A stretch of 64,000 bases of DNA from a phage. Every line of letters starts with the position of its first letter. Positions within the stretch are counted from its first letter, which is position 1. The notes under the pieces were generated by a model. It worked only from the letters and a program-made list of their open reading frames with translations, had not been told where the DNA came from and ran no database searches. Location of the stretch: the sequence record PZ386967.1. One strand, written 5' to 3'. Both the position numbers and the translations under genes were made by a program. Positions 35,478 through 42,206 of the stretch are shown piece after piece.

Positions 35478-36122
35478 TTACTTCTTGAACAGACGAAGGA
35501 ACTTCATCATGTTATCCATGAAAGTTGGCTTCTTGGCCTTTTGTTTTACTGGAGCACCCTGATCATTCAGAACACGACTGGCCGGAGGAGTTGGATTCAA
35601 AGATTTAATTGCCTGATTCAAATCGGAATTATCCACGACACCCACTTCTTCACCGACCGTAACGCATGGTTTGATTAGAACGGATTTCTTAGACTGCTCA
35701 TACTGATGAGCGATATCCAGATATTTCTTGCGCTCTGCGTAGAAATCAACAGACTTGACCTTGCGACGACGCCAATTGGCGCTTTCTTCGCCATAGAAAT
35801 CATATCCGTTTCTGATCAGCCAGTGTACGGCTTGTTCAAAAGAACCGAAGACCATAAGTGGAGCACCCTGGCCTTTCTCAGATTGTTCCAGGCTACCATA
35901 ACCCATCAATACAACCTGGCCTTTGATACTCAAATCAAACGTCATACCAAGGTTCGGGATGTTTTTATCGCGGCGGAAGAACCCGCCATCACGGTAGACG
36001 TAAACAGGCGACAGGAACTCATTCAGAGTACGCTTGACACCCTTGTATCGGAAGAGTCTGACAATTGGAGGGGTGTCACGGGAAATCACTTCGTTCAATT
36101 CCCAGATAGAAACATTACGCAT
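35478..36122 (-). CDS. hypothetical protein
   Basis: 214-aa ORF, ATG start, basic C-terminus. Confidence 0.45.
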   Translation of the reverse strand: MRNVSIWELNEVISRDTPPIVRLFRYKGVKRTLNEFLSPVYVYRDGGFFRRDKNIPNLGMTFDLSIKGQVVLMGYGSLEQSEKGQGAPLMVFGSFEQAVHWLIRNGYDFYGEESANWRRRKVKSVDFYAERKKYLDIAHQYEQSKKSVLIKPCVTVGEEVGVVDNSDLNQAIKSLNPTPPASRVLNDQGAPVKQKAKKPTFMDNMMKFLRLFKK

Positions 36123-36245
36123 CGGTGTATCCTCAAATCTATGACAGGGGGTTAACGGTTAAATTTTAAACCCCCTTTGTATCATTGAACAAACTATGAT
36201 AAAGGAGGACATGCTTGGGTCGATAAGAAGATAATAAGACAGGGA

Positions 36246-36274
36246 TAAAAAGAAAGCCGGATAGGATATCCGGC
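36246..36274 (-). terminator. rho-independent terminator closing the tRNA cluster
   Basis: Hairpin GCCGGATA-GGA-TATCCGGC followed by a U-run on the minus strand. Confidence 0.5.
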
Positions 36275-36492
36275 TATACCACATCGATGGGTTGGGTTGA
36301 AAGACTACACGCTTACACTGGTACTACCCTATGGGAGAGCGCGTCAGGAGTCGAACCTGAAGTCGTCGACGTAGAGAAAGCTATTTGCATTTCACTATCC
36401 TCGCCGCGATTTTCTTAACTTCCTAAACACCCCGATTACGAGAGAGTCGACATGCACATCTTCTAACTCTTCAGGAAGTCACGCCCGTAATT

Positions 36493-36581
36493 TGGCGGAA
36501 GGTGAAGGATTCGAACCTTCGGGGGCTAAAAGCCCCACTCGATTAGCAGTCGAGTCCCTTAAACCTCTCGGGCAACCTTCC
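36493..36581 (-). tRNA. tRNA-Ser (anticodon GCU)
   Basis: Hand-folded cloverleaf: acceptor GGAAGGT/ACCTTCC, anticodon loop CTGCTAA, long variable arm, T-loop GGTTCGAATCC, encoded CCA. Confidence 0.8.
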
Positions 36582-36801
36582 AATTTGGACGGGCTTCACA
36601 CCCGATTGAGCATTTGATCTGCTGTAGCCCAACTCCCCGCGCTTCTCAGCGCCGATTGGTTAACTGGCGACCAGTGCCTTCTGGTTCGATCTCCTGGAAC
36701 TTTACAGGCTTTGCGCCCGACCATTTCTGGAAGTTGGGGCATCGTTTCCGATGTGGAGTCACCCCATTTTATACACAGCTGGCTGCAACGCTTACTGTGT
36801 T

Positions 36802-36886
36802 TGGTGTGAGTGGATGGATTCGAACCACCGCGCTGTTACGGGGAGATTTACAGTCTCCTGCATTCGACCGCTCTGCCACACTCACA
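36802..36886 (-). tRNA. tRNA-Tyr (anticodon GUA)
   Basis: Acceptor GTGAGTG/CACTCAC, anticodon stem GGAGA/TCTCC with loop CTGTAAA, long variable arm, T-loop TTCGAAT, encoded CCA. Confidence 0.75.
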
Positions 36887-37142
36887 TTTGGTCTGCCGCT
36901 GCGTGCTGGGCCACGCTCGAGGACATCGGCCATCCTTCCTCAGCTAATCCACGCAGCGGTAGATTTGTATCAGAGTGTCCGGTGTAGCAACCCGTGAGGT
37001 GCGCACTACTGTAGCCTCTACACTCTGAATTTGGTGGGCGTTACTATCGTCGTCTTCGGATTCCGTTCGGCTATTGGACAGAGGCTTGGAGCTTGTCGGT
37101 CGCGTACTTTATGCCTATTCACTTTCGTTCACACCCATTGTC

Positions 37143-37218
37143 TGGCGACGATGGCAGGACTTGAACCTGCGACATACGGTTTAACAGACCGCCGTTCTAC
37201 CGACTGAACTACATCGTC
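37143..37218 (-). tRNA. tRNA-Asn (anticodon GUU)
   Basis: Acceptor GACGATG/CATCGTC, anticodon loop CTGTTAA, T-arm CAGG-TTCAAGT-CCTG, encoded CCA. Confidence 0.8.
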
Positions 37219-37389
37219 TTGCAAATCACTATACCATATAAAGTTTATTGAACAAACATTTATTTTACAACAAACTGTATTGGCGGGGTCTGAGGCTTTT
37301 CACCTCACCTGCTGGGTTTGGCCGCCCAGCCGTTCTCTATGAGGATTCACTGTCCGGACAGCTATCCATTAAACTATCGCCCCTCAATA

Positions 37390-37466
37390 TGGTGATCCTG
37401 ATTGGGTTTGAACCAATGACCAATGAATTATGAGTTCACTGCTCTAACCGACTGAGCTACAGGACC
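37390..37466 (-). tRNA. tRNA-Met (anticodon CAU; initiator, elongator or Ile2 not resolved)
   Basis: Acceptor GGTCCTG/CAGGATC, D-arm TAGCTCAGTCGGTTAGAGCA, anticodon loop CTCATAA, T-loop GGTTCAAACCC, encoded CCA. Confidence 0.8.
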
Positions 37467-37469
37467 AAA

Positions 37470-39285
37470 TTATTGTGTGACCAACCAAGGACTGTCAACC
37501 CTTTATCCCGTTTGTGCATGATCAGTTCATACAGGCCTCTTTGTGCTGCCTCACGGCATGCGCTTCTGTTGGTCATTGGCTTACACTGTGGCCTCACAAC
37601 AGGCGTTTATTTTTCCAGGGCTTTCCACTTACAAGTCTTAACCAGACCGGGATACGGGCTTGTAAGATCGGGTTGGACACAACTTTGAGGACACTGACGA
37701 CGTATACGAGTCACCCATAACAGATATTCGGATGCCAGTGTCCTCAAAGTTGCAACCAATGTCGCAACTCGCAGCTTCCATACAGAAGCAACTTGTCCTC
37801 TAACGCTCGGACCAAACGAGGCTGGCTGGTTGATTCAGAGCCGCTGGTTGCTCCAGCAAGCATGGGTTGATAGCCCGGCAACATAGAATCACCCAAAGAT
37901 GAAGAACATTCATGACTCACATCACACCACGAATGGCCTGAAAGAGAATCGAACTCTTTAAATGCTCTTCATTTTGTGAACTTGAGAATACTACGCCTGT
38001 CTCGGGTTTCCCCTTAGTTCGGCCTCCCAGTCCTCGCCGCGCCGGGTAGCTAACCCTGATGGCTCGTCTGCTACTGAGTTCTTCTTGGTGCCCACCAGTG
38101 TCCGGAATGTGTAGACATCGCAATCTGCAAGGCATGGTCTATTTCACCCAATGCTCTCTCAAGTTCACAAATCGAAGTGCCCTGACTCAACAGTATGGCC
38201 CAATATGCTGTTATCGTCCACCGGATTGGCCGCCCAATTTGTAGATCAACCTTTGGGTTTAAGATAAATTGTCAAGGCACTTCGATTTGTGTGCCCTTCA
38301 CCTGCCAGGGATCAGGGCTGATGGCAAGACTTCGCTCACATCTTTCAAGATACTCGTGAGAATATCCTCAAAGATGTGGAGCCGTTTTAGGGAGTCGAAC
38401 CCAAATGCTCGGCCAGCGCTGACCTTACATCCCATCTGACTTAGGCAACCCACCTCTGCTTACTCAGGAGCTTATCCCCTTTGGACAGTCAGATATAACG
38501 GCATTGTCGACGGGAGCTTATTAATCACACCCTCCCGTCTATTGTTAGTGCGCCGAATTTGTTGATGAGGAATCGGAAGACCTCACTGACTTATAGGCTA
38601 TTACGCCGCCATCAGAACTTCGGAATCATTAGCAGTTATTTGCTTGGTCAGTTTCTAAAACCCGCAAAGTCACGCACAACGAAAACGAAAACCTGTTTGA
38701 GTCCTAAACGTACCTGTCTTGGTCTCACAACACTATGAGTGGCCAGGACTCAAACAGCTTGCCGTTCAGTGGGTTAACTATACTTTGTAACCCGTTATTG
38801 ATAAAACCTTTTATTTTTGTTGGCGAGGGCGTCACCATCGATTTACCGGAACTTACGCATCCGGCCTCGCCTGTTGGTGCTCCTTCGAATCCGGGAAGAT
38901 TAGTAGGAACTATGAATCAAGTTAATTCGACCAACAGGAACCTTGTTGCCCTTTGACGCAACATTATGAACCCTCTGTGAAGACTCATAATGTTGTCGGC
39001 GTGATGGAGATTAGCGCCCCCGACCTCCCCTTATACGTTGGTGTCGACTTGCCAACAGGGTGCTCTCTGATTCTGAGCTAATCACGCTACAACAGGGAGT
39101 TTCGTTCTCCGACGGTCAGTGCGTCCACCGACACCAGCGAGGTTGATATTACGCCTCTATTCGTCACGGTGCCCTGAGACTGGGCTTTCCTGGTTTCGGG
39201 TTCCAACCCTACTCCCACCGCGCTATTCGCCTCGTGTTTAATACTTTACTACAGCCCAACTAATTTGAAAAGTCCTCTCCTCTTT
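37470..39285 (-). ncRNA. candidate structured non-coding RNA locus (unclassified)
   Basis: About 1.8 kb with no credible ORF in any frame, visibly more GC-rich than flanking genes, with several long-range perfect inverted repeats of 12-17 bp; directly downstream of a small ORF and upstream of the tRNAs on the same strand. Strand and boundaries are guesses. Confidence 0.3.
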
Positions 39286-39432
39286 GAGCTACACTGCCCA
39301 CAGCAGTGCGGACGAACCTGAACTCAAAACCGGATGCGCCGAAGTGGGCGTCTGTTTACCGGACTGATCGGGTCGACCCAGGAGAGAGCAGGTAATCCCG
39401 ATCAGAAGGATGAGGAGTAACATCATGTAAAA
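39286..39432 (-). CDS. small hydrophobic peptide (48 aa, below the ORF-track cutoff)
   Basis: Hand-translated MFYMMLLLILLIGITCSLLGRPDQSGKQTPTSAHPVLSSGSSALLWAV with GGAGGG SD 6-8 nt upstream. Confidence 0.3.
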
Positions 39433-39492
39433 CATAGTGTTCCCTCCCTTCCATGCAAATAACTTTACTGCAATTATTTATTGAATAAAGCG

Positions 39493-40062
39493 TTATTTTA
39501 ACACTTCTAACTTCACAACACGACGCAGAAGGTAAACATATTCGCCAGCAGCTTCATGCGTCATATAATGGGTAGAAGGTGTGGAATGAGTGTTCTGGGT
39601 TTCTTTTAATCCAACGCGTTCAGCCCAACCATTAATAGAGTTTCCATAGAAACCGATAATCGCGCCAAAATAAATGCGCCCGCTTTCTGGCTCTAAAACG
39701 TAGTTGACAGTGAAGCAAATGTCCGAACGAATAGACTCCAGTTTCATACCAACACGACCTTCAGAGAATTCGTTACGAACATATAAATGACGGAAACGAT
39801 TACGCCGCGCTTGTGATGATTCTTCCATTTCTTGTCGAAGCGAAGAAGTTATGTCAATATTAAATGAAAATGTTGGATTTCGTAAATCAGAACGGGCCAA
39901 CTCTAAGGCAGATTCAATAACGCGACGGAAATTGATACTTTTACCTGTCAGGCGTTTCACTTCTTCGGTGATTGTTCCAAAAGGGATTTTCGTGGCGCGT
40001 TCCCCTTCGTATTTTGCTAACAAAGGAATAATGTGTTTCATAATTGCTGTGTTAATGTGCAT
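39493..40062 (-). CDS. hypothetical protein in an AT-rich island
   Basis: 189-aa ORF; ATG with GAGG SD; flanks are AT-rich. Confidence 0.45.
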   Translation of the reverse strand: MHINTAIMKHIIPLLAKYEGERATKIPFGTITEEVKRLTGKSINFRRVIESALELARSDLRNPTFSFNIDITSSLRQEMEESSQARRNRFRHLYVRNEFSEGRVGMKLESIRSDICFTVNYVLEPESGRIYFGAIIGFYGNSINGWAERVGLKETQNTHSTPSTHYMTHEAAGEYVYLLRRVVKLEVLK

Positions 40063-40380
40063 TCCGGAGCCTCACTCGATTGATTAAATGTCTCCGTTAT
40101 TATATTGGGAGTATGTTTATTGAATATAAACACAGGAATGACCAACAAAATAGGAGCGCGGTTTATTAATAGGTAAAAACTACTTTTCTACAACATCAAG
40201 AAACTGTATCCTAACGCAGTGCCCTTCGAGTTGTGAGTGTCAACGAACAACGAGAAGCAGCCTCCATGGCTGTGGAATGGTGCTGCCCGCATAGGGCGGT
40301 GTTACGAGCGAGGGCGTCAGCCCCCTCGCGAGTTATATTCGAATAAATTAAACGCGCGCGAGAGTTTTGATTCCCGTTGG

Positions 40381-40388
40381 CTAAATAT
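40381..40388 (+). promoter_or_regulatory. late-promoter-like motif CTAAATAT
   Basis: Located 40 nt upstream of the GGAG SD and ATG of the gp6-like gene. Confidence 0.4.
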
Positions 40389-40427
40389 CTTCAACACCAT
40401 ATTCAAACTCAGGTGATGGAGATTATC

Positions 40428-42206
40428 ATGGCCACGCAAACAGTCCCTTCACTCGATGTCAGGGCTTTCGAGTATCTTATCAAGAAGCGCATGAAAGCTG
40501 ATCCAACTTTCAAGGATTATGACTTTGAAGGTTCTGGTCTCAGTGCAATCGTGCGTATCTTGGCCTCGGATGCCAACTCTATCGGGTTCATGCAGAACAT
40601 GCTGAATGGCGAAAGCCATCTTCACTCTGCTCAACAGCGTTCTAATGTCGGTCTTGCGGCCGGGTTCTTGTCGTACACCCCTCACAACTACCAGGCGGCG
40701 TACCTGTACGCAAACGTCACAGTCACTCCATATGACGCCAGCACGGCTCCGGACACGATTATAATGGATCGCCGCGCGATGTTCATTGGGGCGAAGGATG
40801 GCAAATCCTACAACTTCACGGTTGACCAACCTGTGAGTGCCTCTCTTGTAGACGGCTCTTACAAGTTCGAGAACATCAAACTCGTACAGGGCAACTGGCT
40901 ATACAAGTCCTATGACGTGGAAGGCAGCGCGATCTCTACCTATGTGATCCCATCTTCTTCCGTGGACATCGACCATATGGTGGTGCAGGTGCAGGAATCT
41001 GAGACATCTGACGTGCGGTCTACCTTCTCACGATATGTCAGCCCGTTCGATTTGAGCCAGTATGCGCAACTCTACTTCGTTGAGCTGGGGTTGGACGGGA
41101 TGTATACGTTCGAATTCGGTGATGGGTATATCTGTAAGCGAGTAGAAGACGGGAACGTCGTGTACCTCCAGTATCTGGAGACAGCTGGTGCGGACGGCAA
41201 TGACATCACTGCCTTGTCCTCCGCGTCTTCCATCGGGGGATTCAACCTTGTAGATGTTGAGCTGGTGTCAGAACGTTCTTCCGGTGGTGCGGACCCGGAG
41301 AGCATTGAGGACATCAAGCGCCTTGCTCCGCTGGCTTATCAGGCTGAGGGTGCGGCGGTAGCTGAAGTCGATTATGCTGTGTTGACCGAGCGTCTGTTCT
41401 CCAACGTCTCCCGCGCCAAAGCATATGGCGGAGACACGCTCTCTCCGCCCGACTCCGGATACGTTTACATTGCTGTGGTGCCTTCTGTTGGTGAGACGCT
41501 CTCGGACGCCGAGAAGGCAGATATCGTGGCGAAGTTGGACAAGTACAATGTGGGCACGATCACACCCAAGATTGTCGACGCTGAACTGACTTATGTTGAT
41601 GTCACCACCCGCGTGTTCTGGGATCCGACTTCCACGACTTACACCGAAGAGCAGTTGAAGACAGTCGTGAAGAACGGTGTTGTCAACTGGGGCTTGGGGA
41701 ACCTAGAAGGATTCGACGAACTGTTCGATAAAGAGCAGTTGCAGTCGGCCATCACCGACATGGACAGATCGATAGTGTCAAACATCACTTCTGTGAAGTA
41801 TAAGCGCCATTTCAAGCCAGACTATGGGGTACTGGACAGCTTCACATTCGATTATGGGCGCTCGATTGCGTCTGGTTCTGTGCGTATCAGTGGGTTTAAG
41901 CCGCTTCCGGCCGAGGTCGAATTCACTTACTACATACGCGACGTCAGTGGTGTCCTGAATATGTACAAGGTGAGTACAACAGACACGACCAAGGAATATC
42001 TGGTACAAGCTGTTGGAATGGTTGATTATGTGACTGGCGTTGTTGAACTCCAGCGTATCATAGTATCCAACTACAACACTGAGGGTGTGACAATAATTGT
42101 GTCTCCAGACGGTCTTGACCAGAACATACAGGCCACACAGAATCAGGTGCTCCGCATCGGTGCTGTAACTGTGGAGCCGGAGGTGCGTTATGTCCAAAGA
42201 TCTTAA
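40428..42206 (+). CDS. 6: baseplate wedge protein (T4 gp6-like, Baseplate_J family)
   Basis: N-terminal DYDFEGSGLSAIVRILA matches recalled T4 gp6 (DYDFEGSRLNVLCDLLA); start moved to ATG 40428 with GGAG SD (ORF-track start is TTG). Confidence 0.7.
   Translation: MATQTVPSLDVRAFEYLIKKRMKADPTFKDYDFEGSGLSAIVRILASDANSIGFMQNMLNGESHLHSAQQRSNVGLAAGFLSYTPHNYQAAYLYANVTVTPYDASTAPDTIIMDRRAMFIGAKDGKSYNFTVDQPVSASLVDGSYKFENIKLVQGNWLYKSYDVEGSAISTYVIPSSSVDIDHMVVQVQESETSDVRSTFSRYVSPFDLSQYAQLYFVELGLDGMYTFEFGDGYICKRVEDGNVVYLQYLETAGADGNDITALSSASSIGGFNLVDVELVSERSSGGADPESIEDIKRLAPLAYQAEGAAVAEVDYAVLTERLFSNVSRAKAYGGDTLSPPDSGYVYIAVVPSVGETLSDAEKADIVAKLDKYNVGTITPKIVDAELTYVDVTTRVFWDPTSTTYTEEQLKTVVKNGVVNWGLGNLEGFDELFDKEQLQSAITDMDRSIVSNITSVKYKRHFKPDYGVLDSFTFDYGRSIASGSVRISGFKPLPAEVEFTYYIRDVSGVLNMYKVSTTDTTKEYLVQAVGMVDYVTGVVELQRIIVSNYNTEGVTIIVSPDGLDQNIQATQNQVLRIGAVTVEPEVRYVQRS

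What the first reader, a model, noticed from the sequence alone, without database searches (positions are those of the whole stretch)
37470..39285. ORF-free, GC-rich, inverted-repeat-dense island of about 1.8 kb beside the tRNA cluster: candidate large structured RNA(s)
The rest of the window is almost entirely coding with overlapping start/stop junctions, yet this stretch has no credible ORF in any frame (the ORF-track hits are short, lack SD sequences and overlap each other). It is visibly more GC-rich than its neighbours. It holds several perfect long-range inverted repeats: 37680-37696 with 37736-37752 (17 bp), 37973-37987 with 38157-38171 (15 bp), 38166-38181 with 38276-38291 (16 bp), and a 7-bp pair at 38822-38871. 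It lies on the same transcriptional side as the tRNAs. T4 encodes stable RNAs of unknown function in its tRNA region, and large ornate RNAs such as GOLLD and ROOL are often phage-borne near tRNAs. No known ribozyme or intron signature could be confirmed by eye.
Basis: partly seen in the sequence, partly recalled or inferred. Interest (0 to 1): 0.75.

Follow-up and report, generated by a model that had tools for sequence, protein, structure and literature searches.

The report
Phage RNA array with anti-tmRNA tag template
The gene-free 1.8 kb beside the phage's tRNA genes is a string of small folded RNA genes, and one of them, shared by hundreds of unrelated enterobacterial phages and prophages but annotated nowhere, combines an antisense copy of the host's ribosome-rescue RNA (tmRNA) with its own tmRNA-style tag-coding frame, which suggests that phages tamper with ribosome rescue.

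Summary
The window is a Kuttervirus-like (Ackermannviridae) phage. 37470-39285 is ORF-free: the longest open stretch is 82 aa, against at least 144 aa elsewhere. It holds 15-17 nt perfect inverted repeats that no shuffle reaches. It is not GC-rich (0.490 against 0.483).

The island is not one large RNA. No Rfam family reaches threshold.

The module at 38693-38511(-) recurs in 630 phage records from at least five phage groups and in 1096 of 5426 E. coli genomes, always unannotated. Its parts are:
- a 5' arm that is an antisense copy of host ssrA nt 68-106. The duplex is about -33 kcal/mol, against -17 with its own sequence, in 119 of 119 variants;
- a 22-nt linker;
- a start-less 10-codon tag frame (ANDSEVLMAA, TAA TAG) with the stop inside a helix-5-like stem;
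- two covarying pseudoknots.

It has no tRNA-like domain, so it is not a tmRNA.

Best reading, which is an inference: the RNA docks on host tmRNA, then blocks its tag or swaps in the phage tag. The tag-swap step is untested.

The parts
37470..39288 (-). ORF-free island: an array of conserved structured-RNA modules upstream of, and co-oriented with, the tRNA cluster
   Evidence: Longest open stretch is 82 aa. It is conserved in 427 phage records and mosaic among Ackermannviridae. The minus-strand consensus fold is more stable than the plus-strand fold in all six modules.
38777..38804 (-). sigma70-like promoter (TTATCA-16-TATAGT) upstream of the tmRNA-like unit
   Evidence: Consensus scan scores 9 of 12. 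An equivalent TTGTCA-17-TATAGT lies at the same place in Serratia phage Kevin. This is a pattern match only.
38684..38766 (-). long 5' hairpin whose base pairs with the first 10 nt of the antisense arm (GGUUUUCGUU)
   Evidence: Inverted repeat I4 has 22-nt arms that are 86% complementary. It is present with a different interior in Kevin and SE131, and absent in siphoviruses and FelixO1-like phages, where a promoter sits directly upstream.
38656..38693 (-). 5' arm: an antisense copy of host ssrA nt 68-106 (3' strand of PK1, the pre-resume stretch, the resume codon and tag codons 1-6)
   Evidence: The local alignment to revcomp(ssrA) beats all 500 shuffles. Antisense alignment scores higher than sense in 119 of 119 variants. 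The duplex with real E. coli ssrA is -35.1 kcal/mol. It is the best ssrA match anywhere in 36100-39300.
38634..38655 (-). 22-nt A-rich linker (GAAACUGACCAAGCAAAUAACU) between the arm and the resume-like codon
   Evidence: It is read from the sequence. In 91 of 119 variants the linker is 22 nt, the same number of host nucleotides as lie between the junction (nt 68) and the host resume codon (nt 90).
38598..38633 (-). start-less 10-codon tag frame GCU AAU GAU UCC GAA GUU CUG AUG GCG GCG UAA UAG = ANDSEVLMAA**
   Evidence: The frame is always 10 codons plus TAA, and there are 18 tag variants without an internal stop. In codons 1-3, positions 1 and 2 are invariant and position 3 varies. ARAGORN recognises the resume consensus in a relative. 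Rfam tmRNA_permuted scores 20-33 bits on this stretch in five lineages.
38586..38615 (-). helix-5-like stem (CUGA/UCAG) that encloses the stop codons
   Evidence: RNAalifold and pair counts show 100% of cells paired, with AU changing to GC in 9 of 22 sequences.
38553..38585 (-). first pseudoknot: hairpin 38581-38585/38566-38570, whose loop CCGA (38573-38576) pairs with UCGG (38553-38556)
   Evidence: Compensatory variants are CCAG:CUGG, CCAA:UUGG and CUAG:CUAG. 98.9-100% of cells are paired.
38511..38552 (-). second pseudoknot: CGCACU (38547-38552) pairs with GGUGUG (38526-38531), interleaved with stem 38532-38537/38511-38516; the loop GAUUAAUAA is conserved
   Evidence: Compensatory variants are CAC:GUG, CAG:CUG, CAU:AUG, UAC:GUA and GAG:CUC.
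38377..38502 (-). tRNA-like module: acceptor GCCGUU/AACGGC, two long arms, T arm UUGGG-UUCGACU-CCCUA, then U73 and an encoded CCA
   Evidence: The MFE fold is cloverleaf-like and 41 of 41 consensus pairs are kept in 9 relatives. It is 95-99% identical in about 200 Ackermannviridae. Neither ARAGORN nor the Rfam tRNA model calls it. It has no G3:U70 pair.
38337..38378 (-). 19-bp hairpin (I5)
   Evidence: Compensatory changes occur at 38278/38179, 38276/38181 and 38272/38185.
   Evidence: The consensus fold has 74 pairs with 99.5% of cells paired, and 14 pairs carry compensatory change.
37899..37972 (-). module closed by a 14-bp stem UGAAGAGCAUUUA/UGAAUGUUCUUCA, with a T-arm-like hairpin AAGAG-UUCGAUU-CUCUU
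   Evidence: The stem sequence resembles the GGUAAGAGCAUUG...CAGUGCUCUUUCC stems that flank the tmRNA-like unit in other phages.
   Evidence: Four compensatory pairs: 37743/37689, 37741/37691, 37739/37693 and 37736/37696.
37470..37672 (-). multi-helix structured domain just upstream of the tRNA promoter
   Evidence: Consensus fold with compensatory pairs at 37604/37560, 37599/37569, 37592/37579 and 37533/37515.
38810..39288 (-). 5'-most structured module(s) of the island
   Evidence: The consensus fold has 116 pairs with 98.3% of cells paired, and 13 pairs carry compensatory change. Its energy is -107.7 kcal/mol on the minus strand and -82.8 on the plus strand.
37469..37498 (-). strong sigma70-like promoter (TTGACA-18-AATAAT, 11 of 12) immediately upstream of tRNA-Met
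   Evidence: Consensus match only.
36493..37466 (-). tRNA-Met, tRNA-Asn, tRNA-Tyr and tRNA-Ser cluster downstream of the island
   Evidence: ARAGORN and Rfam.

Best explanation
Shown:
- 37470-39288 is a minus-strand array of small, independently shuffled, structured RNA genes that lies upstream of the phage tRNA genes and is co-oriented with them.
- Its best-defined member runs from about 38770 to 38511 on the minus strand, with its core at 38693-38511. It is a tmRNA-derived RNA that lacks a tRNA-like domain.
- That member consists of a 38-nt 5' arm that is the reverse complement of host ssrA nt 68-106; a 22-nt A-rich linker; a resume-like Ala codon opening a start-less 10-codon tag frame (ANDSEVLMAA) closed by UAA UAG inside a helix-5-like stem; and two H-type pseudoknots.

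Inferred:
- The RNA is made from its own sigma70-type promoter. In lambdoid prophages it would be made from the Q-dependent late transcript.
- It may be trimmed at the adjacent tRNA-like modules by tRNA-processing enzymes.
[quoted passage not shown] That buries the host resume codon and the first six tag codons and unzips the 3' strand of PK1.
- The minimal consequence is that host tagging (ANDENYALAA) is blocked.
- The fuller model is that the phage RNA, tethered where the host template begins, serves as a surrogate coding piece. Ribosomes rescued by host tmRNA-SmpB would then add the phage-specified tag (...LMAA or ...LAVA) instead of the host degron.

I favour the fuller model because the frame shows codon-level conservation, but it is untested.
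For: Array of RNAs:
- The stretch is ORF-free.
- It is conserved in 427 phage records and has modular breakpoints.
- The minus-strand consensus fold is more stable than the plus-strand fold in all six modules.
- There are 10, 14 and 13 compensatory pairs in three of the modules.

The unit is a real, mobile RNA family:
- 630 phage records hold it, from Ackermannviridae, Schitoviridae, Ounavirinae, Grimontviridae and several siphovirus groups.
- 1096 of 5426 E. coli genomes hold it, in prophages and phage-plasmids, with nothing annotated under it.
- Nearby tRNAs lie on the same strand in 40 loci and on the opposite strand in none.
- Promoters lie directly upstream.

Structure: 28 pairs with 94% of cells paired, against 24-49% in slid controls; 14 pairs with compensatory change; 0 of 500 shuffles reach the observed values.

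Tag frame:
- It is always 10 codons plus TAA, has no start codon, follows the pattern AN(D/E)xxx(L)xxA, and shows third-position variation in codons 1-3.
- ARAGORN recognises a resume consensus in a relative.
- Rfam tmRNA_permuted gives sub-threshold hits in five lineages, with E down to 2.6e-4.

Antisense arm:
- Alignment to revcomp(ssrA) scores above all 500 shuffles in 10 of 12 lineages, and p = 0.002 in the other two.
- The mean antisense score is 33.2 against 14.2 for sense, and antisense is higher in 119 of 119 variants.
- The duplex with host ssrA averages -33.3 kcal/mol, against -17.3 with the unit's own template and -15.9 with shuffled host.
- The window arm against real E. coli ssrA gives -35.1 kcal/mol.
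- The 33-nt target is identical in 40 species, mostly of Enterobacterales genera.

The linker is 22 nt, equal to the host's 22 nt between the junction and its resume codon, in 91 of 119 variants.

In several lineages, such as Pollock and SP-058, no cis tRNA-like domain follows before a terminator. 49 of 135 loci have neither a tRNA nor a T-arm motif within -500..+700 of the tag.
Against: - There is no expression, interaction or tagging data of any kind. Everything rests on sequence.
- In the window and other Ackermannviridae, the first 10 nt of the arm are paired in a 5' hairpin. Predicted accessibility of the arm is unremarkable, with paired probability 0.57-0.72.
- The sense part is not significantly similar to ssrA at the nucleotide level (score 19, against a shuffle maximum of 25), and Rfam scores stay below gathering.
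- FelixO1-like variants have a shorter arm and a linker of 16-18 nt where the host has 9-10 nt, so the spacing equality is not universal, and the 91 sequences that show it are related.
- A PK1 equivalent could not be established by covariation.
- No precedent exists for a ribosome resuming on a template held to tmRNA only by an intermolecular duplex in the mRNA-like region.
- From memory, Salmonella ssrA may differ by one base in the target. I did not check this.
Confidence: 0.55

Rival explanations
1. Pure antisense inhibitor. The arm silences or destabilises host tmRNA, for example through RNase III, and so shifts ribosome rescue to the tag-free ArfA/ArfB routes. The tag-like frame is never translated. 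It is either a relic of the ssrA fragment from which the element arose, or a mimic that binds tmRNA partners such as S1, SmpB or RNase R.
For: The antisense evidence is the strongest part of the data. There is no tRNA-like domain. An intermolecular template has no precedent. The TLD-only RNA of mycobacteriophage DS6A shows that phages carry partial tmRNA mimics that inhibit tmRNA (PMC4131195).
Against: The frame is kept at exactly 10 codons with a terminal TAA in every lineage. It shows a positions-1-and-2-invariant, position-3-variable pattern in codons 1-3 and has no internal stops among 18 tag variants. A relic would not keep this across phage families that share nothing else. A plain antisense RNA would not need two conserved pseudoknots.
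Confidence: 0.25
2. Self-sufficient phage two-piece tmRNA. An adjacent tRNA-like module (38502-38377 in the window; the GCAUUG...CAGUGC-U modules elsewhere) is processed, given or already carrying CCA, and aminoacylated. It then acts as the acceptor piece for the phage coding piece, while the arm only removes competition from host tmRNA.
For: The window module has a 7/5 acceptor/T-arm geometry, U73 and an encoded CCA, and it is 95-99% conserved. T-arm-bearing modules flank the unit in many phages, on either or both sides. Leader and trailer pairing resembles that of tRNA precursors.
Against: No module has the G3:U70 alanine identity pair. The acceptor stems are G1-C72, C2-G71, N3-N70. I found no helices that would join a module to the coding unit. 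Module interiors are hypervariable and often lack a T arm. 49 of 135 loci have neither a tRNA nor a T-arm motif nearby. Neither ARAGORN nor the Rfam tRNA and tmRNA models accept the modules.
Confidence: 0.12
3. DNA-level element rather than RNA: a packaging site, genome terminus, replication origin or recombination hot spot whose inverted repeats act as DNA.
For: Several deposited Kuttervirus genomes begin or end inside this island, and one annotates a repeat_region there. The island is a recombination mosaic.
Against: Folding is strand-asymmetric, and G-U pairs are conserved in all 22 sequences at four positions. Promoters lie directly upstream of the unit in unrelated phages. The unit also occurs in the late-leader region of lambdoid prophages, which is not a terminus. 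Strict co-orientation with tRNAs holds.
Confidence: 0.04
4. Decayed remains of tRNA, ssrA or protein genes: non-functional junk or pseudogenes.
For: T-arm-like fragments are scattered through the island. Relatives annotate pseudo-tRNAs.
Against: Identity is 80-99% across hundreds of phages, with compensatory rather than random substitutions. Phage families that share no other DNA share the unit. No relative carries an intact protein gene here.
Confidence: 0.04

Closest known systems
tmRNA (SsrA), one-piece form (Rfam RF00023)
   Same: A start-less tag frame opens with an Ala codon after an A/U-rich stretch (AUAAAU|GCA AAC GAU in most variants, AUAACU|GCU AAU GAU in the window). The tag has the form AN(D/E)...AA/VA. 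The stop codon lies inside a helix-5-like stem. Pseudoknots follow the frame.
   Different: There is no tRNA-like domain formed by the two ends and no G3:U70 pair. Only two pseudoknots follow the tag, and PK1 is not established. The 5' end is an antisense copy of the host tmRNA template. Scores are far below gathering (10.5 and 20 bits against 47).
coding piece of two-piece (permuted) tmRNA of Alpha- and Betaproteobacteria and cyanobacteria (RF04321, RF01849-51)
   Same: It is an RNA that carries only the template and must be held to the acceptor part by base pairing. The best, though sub-threshold, Rfam hits are to these models.
   Different: In natural two-piece tmRNA the pieces come from one permuted gene and pair through the acceptor stem and P2. 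Here the proposed partner is the host's complete tmRNA, and the pairing is with its mRNA-like region.
TLD-only tmRNA of mycobacteriophage DS6A, and complete tmRNAs of Bxz1-like mycobacteriophages and Bacillus phage G (PMC4131195, PMC11915505)
   Same: These are phage-borne derivatives of tmRNA. The DS6A form is a partial molecule thought to interfere with host trans-translation.
   Different: DS6A keeps the tRNA-like half and lacks the template. This family is the converse, and it adds an antisense arm. It occurs in enterobacterial phages, where I found no report of a phage tmRNA.
prophage-encoded anti-sRNAs and sRNAs of the lambdoid late region (AgvB, AsxR, Pas sRNAs, STnc100)
   Same: These are phage RNAs that act by pairing with a host regulatory RNA. 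They occupy the same Q-to-holin gap in lambdoid prophages (10.64898/2026.05.13.724894). An STnc100-family gene sits in this very island in relatives.
   Different: Those are short Hfq-type sRNAs with terminators. None is reported to target SsrA or to carry a tag frame and pseudoknots. I could not exclude that transcriptome catalogues list this unit under another name.
stable RNAs of the phage T4 tRNA region (species 1 and 2, also called band C and D RNAs); from general knowledge
   Same: They are small stable RNAs of unknown function, co-transcribed with phage tRNAs and cut out by tRNA-processing enzymes.
   Different: I did not test sequence or structural similarity. The T4 RNAs have no reported tag frame or anti-ssrA arm.

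Membership tests
tmRNA (RF00023 / ARAGORN definition) | tRNA-like domain: an acceptor stem formed by the 5' and 3' ends, plus a T arm | tested here: not met
   ARAGORN finds no tmRNA in the window or in 134 of 135 related loci. The one 'permuted' call, in L016, borrows parts of neighbouring tRNAs. Promoters place the 5' end at the antisense arm.
tmRNA (RF00023 / ARAGORN definition) | G3:U70 alanine identity pair and an ACCA end | tested here: not met
   The adjacent tRNA-like modules have G1-C72, C2-G71, C3-G70 in the window and A3-U70 elsewhere, with U73. Only the window module encodes CCA.
tmRNA (RF00023 / ARAGORN definition) | start-less tag reading frame that opens at an Ala resume codon after an A/U-rich stretch and ends in a hydrophobic-Ala-Ala type C-terminus | tested here: met
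   The window tag is ANDSEVLMAA**. There are 18 variants in 135 loci, all of 10 codons. ARAGORN recognises the resume consensus.
tmRNA (RF00023 / ARAGORN definition) | stop codon inside helix 5, followed by pseudoknots | tested here: met
   A helix-5-like stem and two pseudoknots are supported by covariation. Canonical tmRNA has three pseudoknots after the tag.
tmRNA (RF00023 / ARAGORN definition) | PK1 upstream of the resume codon | tested here: inconclusive
   Candidate pairings such as CUUUG/CAAAG and GGU/ACC show too little variation. This region is instead explained as antisense to ssrA.
tmRNA (RF00023 / ARAGORN definition) | curated covariance-model score | tested here: not met
   In the window, RF00023 scores 10.5 bits and RF04321 scores 20 bits, both against a gathering score of 47. 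The best relative reaches 33.1 bits.
tmRNA (RF00023 / ARAGORN definition) | works with SmpB and EF-Tu on stalled ribosomes | not testable with these tools
   The four window ORFs next to the island and the gp6-like baseplate gene show no SmpB domain in Pfam. The rest of the window was not scanned.
large ornate phage RNAs (GOLLD, ROOL), group I/II introns, RNase P RNA, 6S RNA | match to the curated Rfam model | tested here: not met
   cmscan of 36000-39600 at E up to 10 lists none of these. The island is modular, not one conserved unit.
STnc100 (RF02076) | match to the curated Rfam model | tested here: not met
   It is absent from the window. It is present at 53.6 bits (gathering 47) in Klebsiella phage P01 as a 167-nt insertion at window position about 37771-37776.
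tRNA (for module 38502-38377) | cloverleaf with D arm and anticodon arm that is recognised by tRNA models | tested here: not met
   An acceptor stem, a T arm and CCA are present. There is no ARAGORN call and no RF00005 hit at E up to 10. Two long non-canonical arms replace the D and anticodon arms.

The most novel reading that the evidence does not exclude
This would be a natural trans-acting 'tag-swap' RNA. A phage-encoded coding piece without a tRNA-like domain hybridises to the template region of the host's own tmRNA, forming a host-phage two-piece tmRNA. Rescued ribosomes would then append a phage-specified peptide (...LMAA or ...LAVA) instead of the host ANDENYALAA degron. In that way many unrelated enterobacterial phages and prophages would reprogramme the fate of proteins from stalled ribosomes.
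Probability: 0.3. Interest if true: 0.95.

Novelty: new variant of a known kind. Interest (0 to 1): 0.85.

Why it matters
Trans-translation by tmRNA-SmpB is the main ribosome-rescue and quality-control pathway of bacteria and is a drug target. According to the tmRNA surveys read here, the phage tmRNAs named are complete copies in mycobacteriophages and Bacillus phage G and a TLD-only form in DS6A.

An unannotated RNA family that is antisense to the host tmRNA template, and that carries its own conserved tag frame, would mean that phages actively manipulate ribosome rescue. The family is present in a fifth of complete E. coli genomes and in lytic phages used for therapy and biocontrol (Kuttervirus, FelixO1-like, N4-like and several siphovirus groups).

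Its constant association with phage tRNA clusters suggests a 'translation-maintenance' cassette. That may be relevant to defence systems that cleave tRNAs and stall ribosomes.

On the practical side, the family is easy to test by Northern blot, RNA-RNA ligation, or mass spectrometry of tags on a non-stop reporter. It also gives annotators a name for a recurrent 'empty' region, and it would offer a natural tool for redirecting tmRNA tagging.

Tried and rejected
- Rfam at gathering threshold and at E up to 10 gave nothing but tRNAs and weak tmRNA-type hits.
- I looked for a canonical or permuted tRNA-like domain around the unit by eye, with ARAGORN and with motif scans. The one ARAGORN 'permuted tmRNA' in L016 is built from parts of neighbouring tRNAs, and I rejected it.
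- I tried to read the 5' arm as a sense homologue of the ssrA D-loop/P2 region. This was rejected because sense alignment scores are at chance level: 14.2 against 33.2 for antisense.
- I tested the arm as a partner of the unit's own template, a self-hairpin. This was rejected: -17.3 kcal/mol is about the same as the shuffled control.
- An unbiased covariation scan for PK1 was swamped by phylogenetic correlation.
- Arm accessibility from partition-function folding was inconclusive.
- Pfam on the four ORFs next to the island found nothing relevant; the only hits were a weak PLP-enzyme match on one of them and gp6 baseplate domains on the fifth protein scanned, 40377-42206(+).
- Literature searches for phage tmRNA-like RNA, ssrA-like RNA, antisense to tmRNA, and RIL-seq SsrA chimeras found no description of this family. 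The Pas-sRNA preprint gives no sequences, so identity with a named prophage sRNA could not be excluded.
- The supplement of the 2025 tmRNA database paper held no phage list.
Full report
**Identity of the window and check of the observation**

The island and its flanks match Ackermannviridae. The best match is Enterobacter phage fGh-Ecl02, genus Kuttervirus, at 96%. Four tRNA genes (Ser, Tyr, Asn, Met) lie on the minus strand at 36493-37466.

The interval 37470-39285 is ORF-free. Its longest stop-free stretch in any frame is 82 aa, while every other window segment of the same length has at least 144 aa. The longest perfect repeat is 17 nt, against a maximum of 12 in 100 shuffles and 14 elsewhere in the window. 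The claim of raised G+C is wrong: 0.490 in the region against 0.483 for the window.

**What the island is**

A covariance-model scan against Rfam 15 finds only the tRNAs at gathering threshold. Even at E up to 10 it finds no GOLLD, ROOL, intron, RNase P or 6S hit. The interval is conserved in 427 phage records, and relatives annotate nothing there or scattered tiny ORFs.

Comparison with twelve Ackermannviridae loci shows a mosaic of modules. Breakpoints recur at about 37771-37776, 37826-37972, 38292-38366, 38504-38506 and 38817-38841.

For each of six modules, the consensus fold of the aligned relatives is more stable on the minus strand than on the plus strand. Examples are -82.2 against -58.2 kcal/mol for 37960-38300 and -107.7 against -82.8 for 38800-39293.

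- four pairs in 37736-37743/37689-37696;
- three pairs in 38272-38278/38179-38185;
- in all, 10, 14 and 13 compensatory pairs in three of the modules.

A strong sigma70-like promoter (TTGACA-18-AATAAT) sits on the minus strand at 37498-37469, just before tRNA-Met, and a weaker one sits at 38804-38777. The island is therefore an array of small structured RNA genes co-oriented with the tRNAs, not a single large RNA.

**A module shared with unrelated phages**

The stretch 38547-38686 also matches DNA of phages that share nothing else with the window:
- siphoviruses Sf11 and VLCpiS13b;
- Schitoviridae Pollock, FSL SP-058 and IME11;
- Ounavirinae phiEa21-4 and Sf19;
- Grimontviridae SE131.

A dedicated search finds it in 630 phage records. 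It is always in unannotated DNA. Where canonical tRNAs lie nearby they are on the same strand: 40 loci with a same-strand tRNA and none with an opposite-strand tRNA.

In siphoviruses and FelixO1-like phages a TTGACA-17-TAGATT or TATAGT promoter lies directly upstream. That places the RNA 5' end at the motif (U/G)AGUUUUCG.

The element is also in 1096 of 5426 complete E. coli genomes, with 641 places on chromosomes and 616 on plasmids, and PGAP annotates nothing under it. In a lambdoid prophage the array fills the ORF-free kilobase between antiterminator Q with its tR' terminator and the holin gene. In a phage-plasmid it lies among tRNAs next to a Tad2 anti-defence gene.

**Anatomy of the unit (window, minus strand)**

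The alignment of ten instances revealed a tmRNA-style tag frame. In the window it reads GCU AAU GAU UCC GAA GUU CUG AUG GCG GCG UAA UAG, which is ANDSEVLMAA**, at 38633-38598. It is preceded by an A-rich stretch and has no start codon.

A pattern scan of IMG/VR added 120 loci. Over 135 loci there are 18 tag variants, including ANDDVVLMAA, ANEEMYLAVA, ANDEQFLAVA and ANDNTFLAVA. All have 10 codons followed by TAA. The fifteen instances recovered by BLAST, without any pattern, also have 10 codons. In codons 1-3 the first two positions are invariant and the third varies.

ARAGORN recognises the 'resume consensus' in a relative. Rfam's permuted-tmRNA model RF04321 gives sub-threshold hits on this stretch in five lineages, at 20-33 bits with E down to 2.6e-4. 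These hits are driven by the resume and tag region.

Downstream, a 22-sequence alignment (A2) supports three features:
- a helix-5-like stem that encloses the stop codons;
- a hairpin whose loop CCGA pairs with a downstream UCGG, with variants CCAG:CUGG, CCAA:UUGG and CUAG:CUAG;
- a second pseudoknot in which CGCACU pairs with GGUGUG inside the loop of the next stem, with variants CAG:CUG, CAU:AUG, UAC:GUA and GAG:CUC.

Over the 28 pairs, 94% of cells are paired, against 24-49% when partners are slid by 1-3 columns. Fourteen pairs carry compensatory change, and none of 500 shuffles reaches the observed values. A second sequence type of the 3' half (SE131, Kevin and some N4-like phages) appears by eye to have the same architecture; this was not tested by pair counts.

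**No tRNA-like domain**

ARAGORN finds no tmRNA in the window or in relatives. Its single 'permuted' call, in L016, is assembled from neighbouring tRNAs.

The unit is often flanked by modules with a conserved stem, GGUAAGA|GCAUUG...CAGUGC|U|CUUUCC. Their interiors are hypervariable and sometimes contain a T arm.

In the window the downstream module (38502-38377) folds like a cloverleaf. It has acceptor GCCGUU/AACGGC, a T arm, U73 and an encoded CCA. It is 95-99% identical in about 200 Ackermannviridae.

None of these modules has G3:U70. I found no helix that joins them to the unit. 49 of 135 loci have neither a tRNA nor a T-arm motif within -500..+700 of the tag. In Pollock and SP-058 the unit is followed by a terminator with no such module. 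These modules are most simply read as separate RNAs or as processing signals.

**The 5' arm is antisense to host tmRNA**

The invariant 5' motif GUUUUCG, the block GCGAC and the block UUUGCGG(N)UUUUUA are collinear with the reverse complement of E. coli ssrA nt 68-106. That stretch reads UAAAAAGCCGCAAAAAAUAGUCGCAAACGACGAAAACUA. It covers the 3' strand of PK1, the pre-resume stretch, the resume codon and tag codons 1-6.

- Local alignment of the arm to revcomp(ssrA) exceeds all 500 shuffles in 10 of 12 lineages, and p = 0.002 in the other two.
- Over 119 unique variants the antisense score averages 33.2 and the sense score 14.2. Antisense is higher in every case.
- The predicted duplex with ssrA nt 60-125 averages -33.3 kcal/mol. 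It averages -17.3 with the unit's own template and -15.9 with shuffled host sequence. The host duplex is the more stable in 119 of 119.
- The window's arm (38693-38656) gives -35.1 kcal/mol with ssrA taken from an E. coli genome.
- It is the best ssrA match, in either orientation, in the whole 36100-39300 transcript.
- The ssrA sequence I recalled from memory is 99.2% identical to the annotated gene.
- The 33-nt core of the target is identical in 40 species, mostly of Enterobacterales genera.
- Different lineages keep different parts of the antisense copy. FelixO1-like phages keep CUAUUUU, which the others have deleted. This suggests descent from a full inverted copy, with selection for pairing to the host RNA.
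- In 91 of 119 variants the arm ends opposite nt 68 and the linker to the phage resume codon is 22 nt, equal to the host's 22 nt from nt 68 to its resume codon. The sequences are related, and FelixO1-like variants differ.

**Mechanism**

Shown: the family exists and is structured, it carries a conserved tag frame without a start codon, and its 5' arm is complementary to the host tmRNA template.

Inferred: the arm anneals to host tmRNA and masks its resume codon and tag. Because the frame is conserved at codon level, I favour the view that it is translated. That requires delivery to a stalled ribosome. The most economical route is a host-phage hybrid in which the phage RNA acts as a surrogate coding piece, a 'tag swap'.

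The rivals are:
- a pure antisense inhibitor whose frame is a relic or a mimic;
- a self-sufficient two-piece system that uses the tRNA-like modules;
- a DNA-level element;
- junk.

Points against the favoured model:
- there are no expression or interaction data;
- the arm is partly sequestered in a 5' hairpin in Ackermannviridae;
- the sense part has no significant nucleotide similarity to ssrA;
- PK1 is unresolved;
- such a mechanism has no precedent.

**Comparison with what is known**

The unit fails the defining tests for tmRNA: it has no tRNA-like domain, no G3:U70 pair and no gathering score. It passes the template-side tests: tag frame, stop inside helix 5, pseudoknots. It works like the coding piece of a two-piece tmRNA but is not a member of that family.

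Surveys of tmRNA name, among phages, only mycobacteriophages and Bacillus phage G; a later database counts 79 unspecified phage sequences (PMC4131195, PMC11915505). My searches found no description of an anti-tmRNA RNA or of this family.

The lambdoid Q-to-holin gap is known to hold the prophage sRNAs Pas and STnc100 (10.64898/2026.05.13.724894). I could not exclude that a transcript catalogue lists this unit under another name.

**Verdict**

The valuable content is a widespread, unannotated, tmRNA-derived RNA with an anti-ssrA arm. Interest is high. The mechanism needs experiments.

Noticed in passing
window ~37771-37776; L005:1781-1995 (Klebsiella phage P01), also L019 and L041: Relatives carry a 167-nt STnc100-family Hfq-type sRNA gene (RF02076, 53.6 bits against a gathering score of 47) inserted exactly at this point of the island. 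The window has the empty site.
   Followed up: partly
window 38500-38780 equivalents in Salmonella phages SeF3a, Phi_10 and Mutine (hits H104, H106, H47): An HNH homing endonuclease gene is inserted within the module that holds the tmRNA-like unit, splitting the match into two pieces.
   Followed up: no
window ~37736-38820 equivalents; L004:1-1708 (phage dinky), plus kage, barely, aagejoakim and AV101: Several deposited Kuttervirus genomes start or end inside this island, and one annotates a 21-bp repeat_region there. This may reflect a real terminus or only the depositors' choice of start point.
   Followed up: no
window 36287-36480, 36582-36801, 36886-37142, 37219-37389: The spacers between and after the four tRNAs are unusually long (170-260 nt), ORF-free and conserved. 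They hold hairpins (36892-36905/36950-36963) and a T-arm-like motif (36346-36358). Det7 annotates a pseudo-tRNA with a 15-bp 'intron' next to tRNA-Ser. The RNA array probably extends through the tRNA cluster.
   Followed up: no
L137 (E. coli plasmid pIso00270_02) 2501-3764 and flanks: In a 94-kb phage-plasmid the same RNA array lies among tRNA genes, and a Thoeris anti-defence Tad2 gene lies about 2 kb away. This hints at an anti-defence or translation-maintenance neighbourhood.
   Followed up: no
L136:3896-4916 (E. coli lambdoid prophage): The ORF-free kilobase between antiterminator Q with its tR' terminator and the holin gene is filled by two GGUAAGAGCA...UGCUCUUUCC modules, the tmRNA-like unit (tag ANEEMYLAVA) and a further tRNA-like module (GUGGUG...CACCAC with a T-arm-like hairpin). 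All of it would be transcribed only with Q-dependent late expression.
   Followed up: partly
window 38517-38525 (minus strand) and all type-A relatives: The invariant loop of the last pseudoknot, GAUUAAUAA, contains the same UUAAUAA double stop that ends the E. coli ssrA tag frame. I have no explanation for this.
   Followed up: no
window 37816-37896 and 37622-37670: Two further short stretches of the island match unrelated Klebsiella phages: Tribble_ER49 at 85% over 81 nt, and KP13-26 at 96% over 49 nt. Other modules may therefore also be shared across phage families.
   Followed up: no
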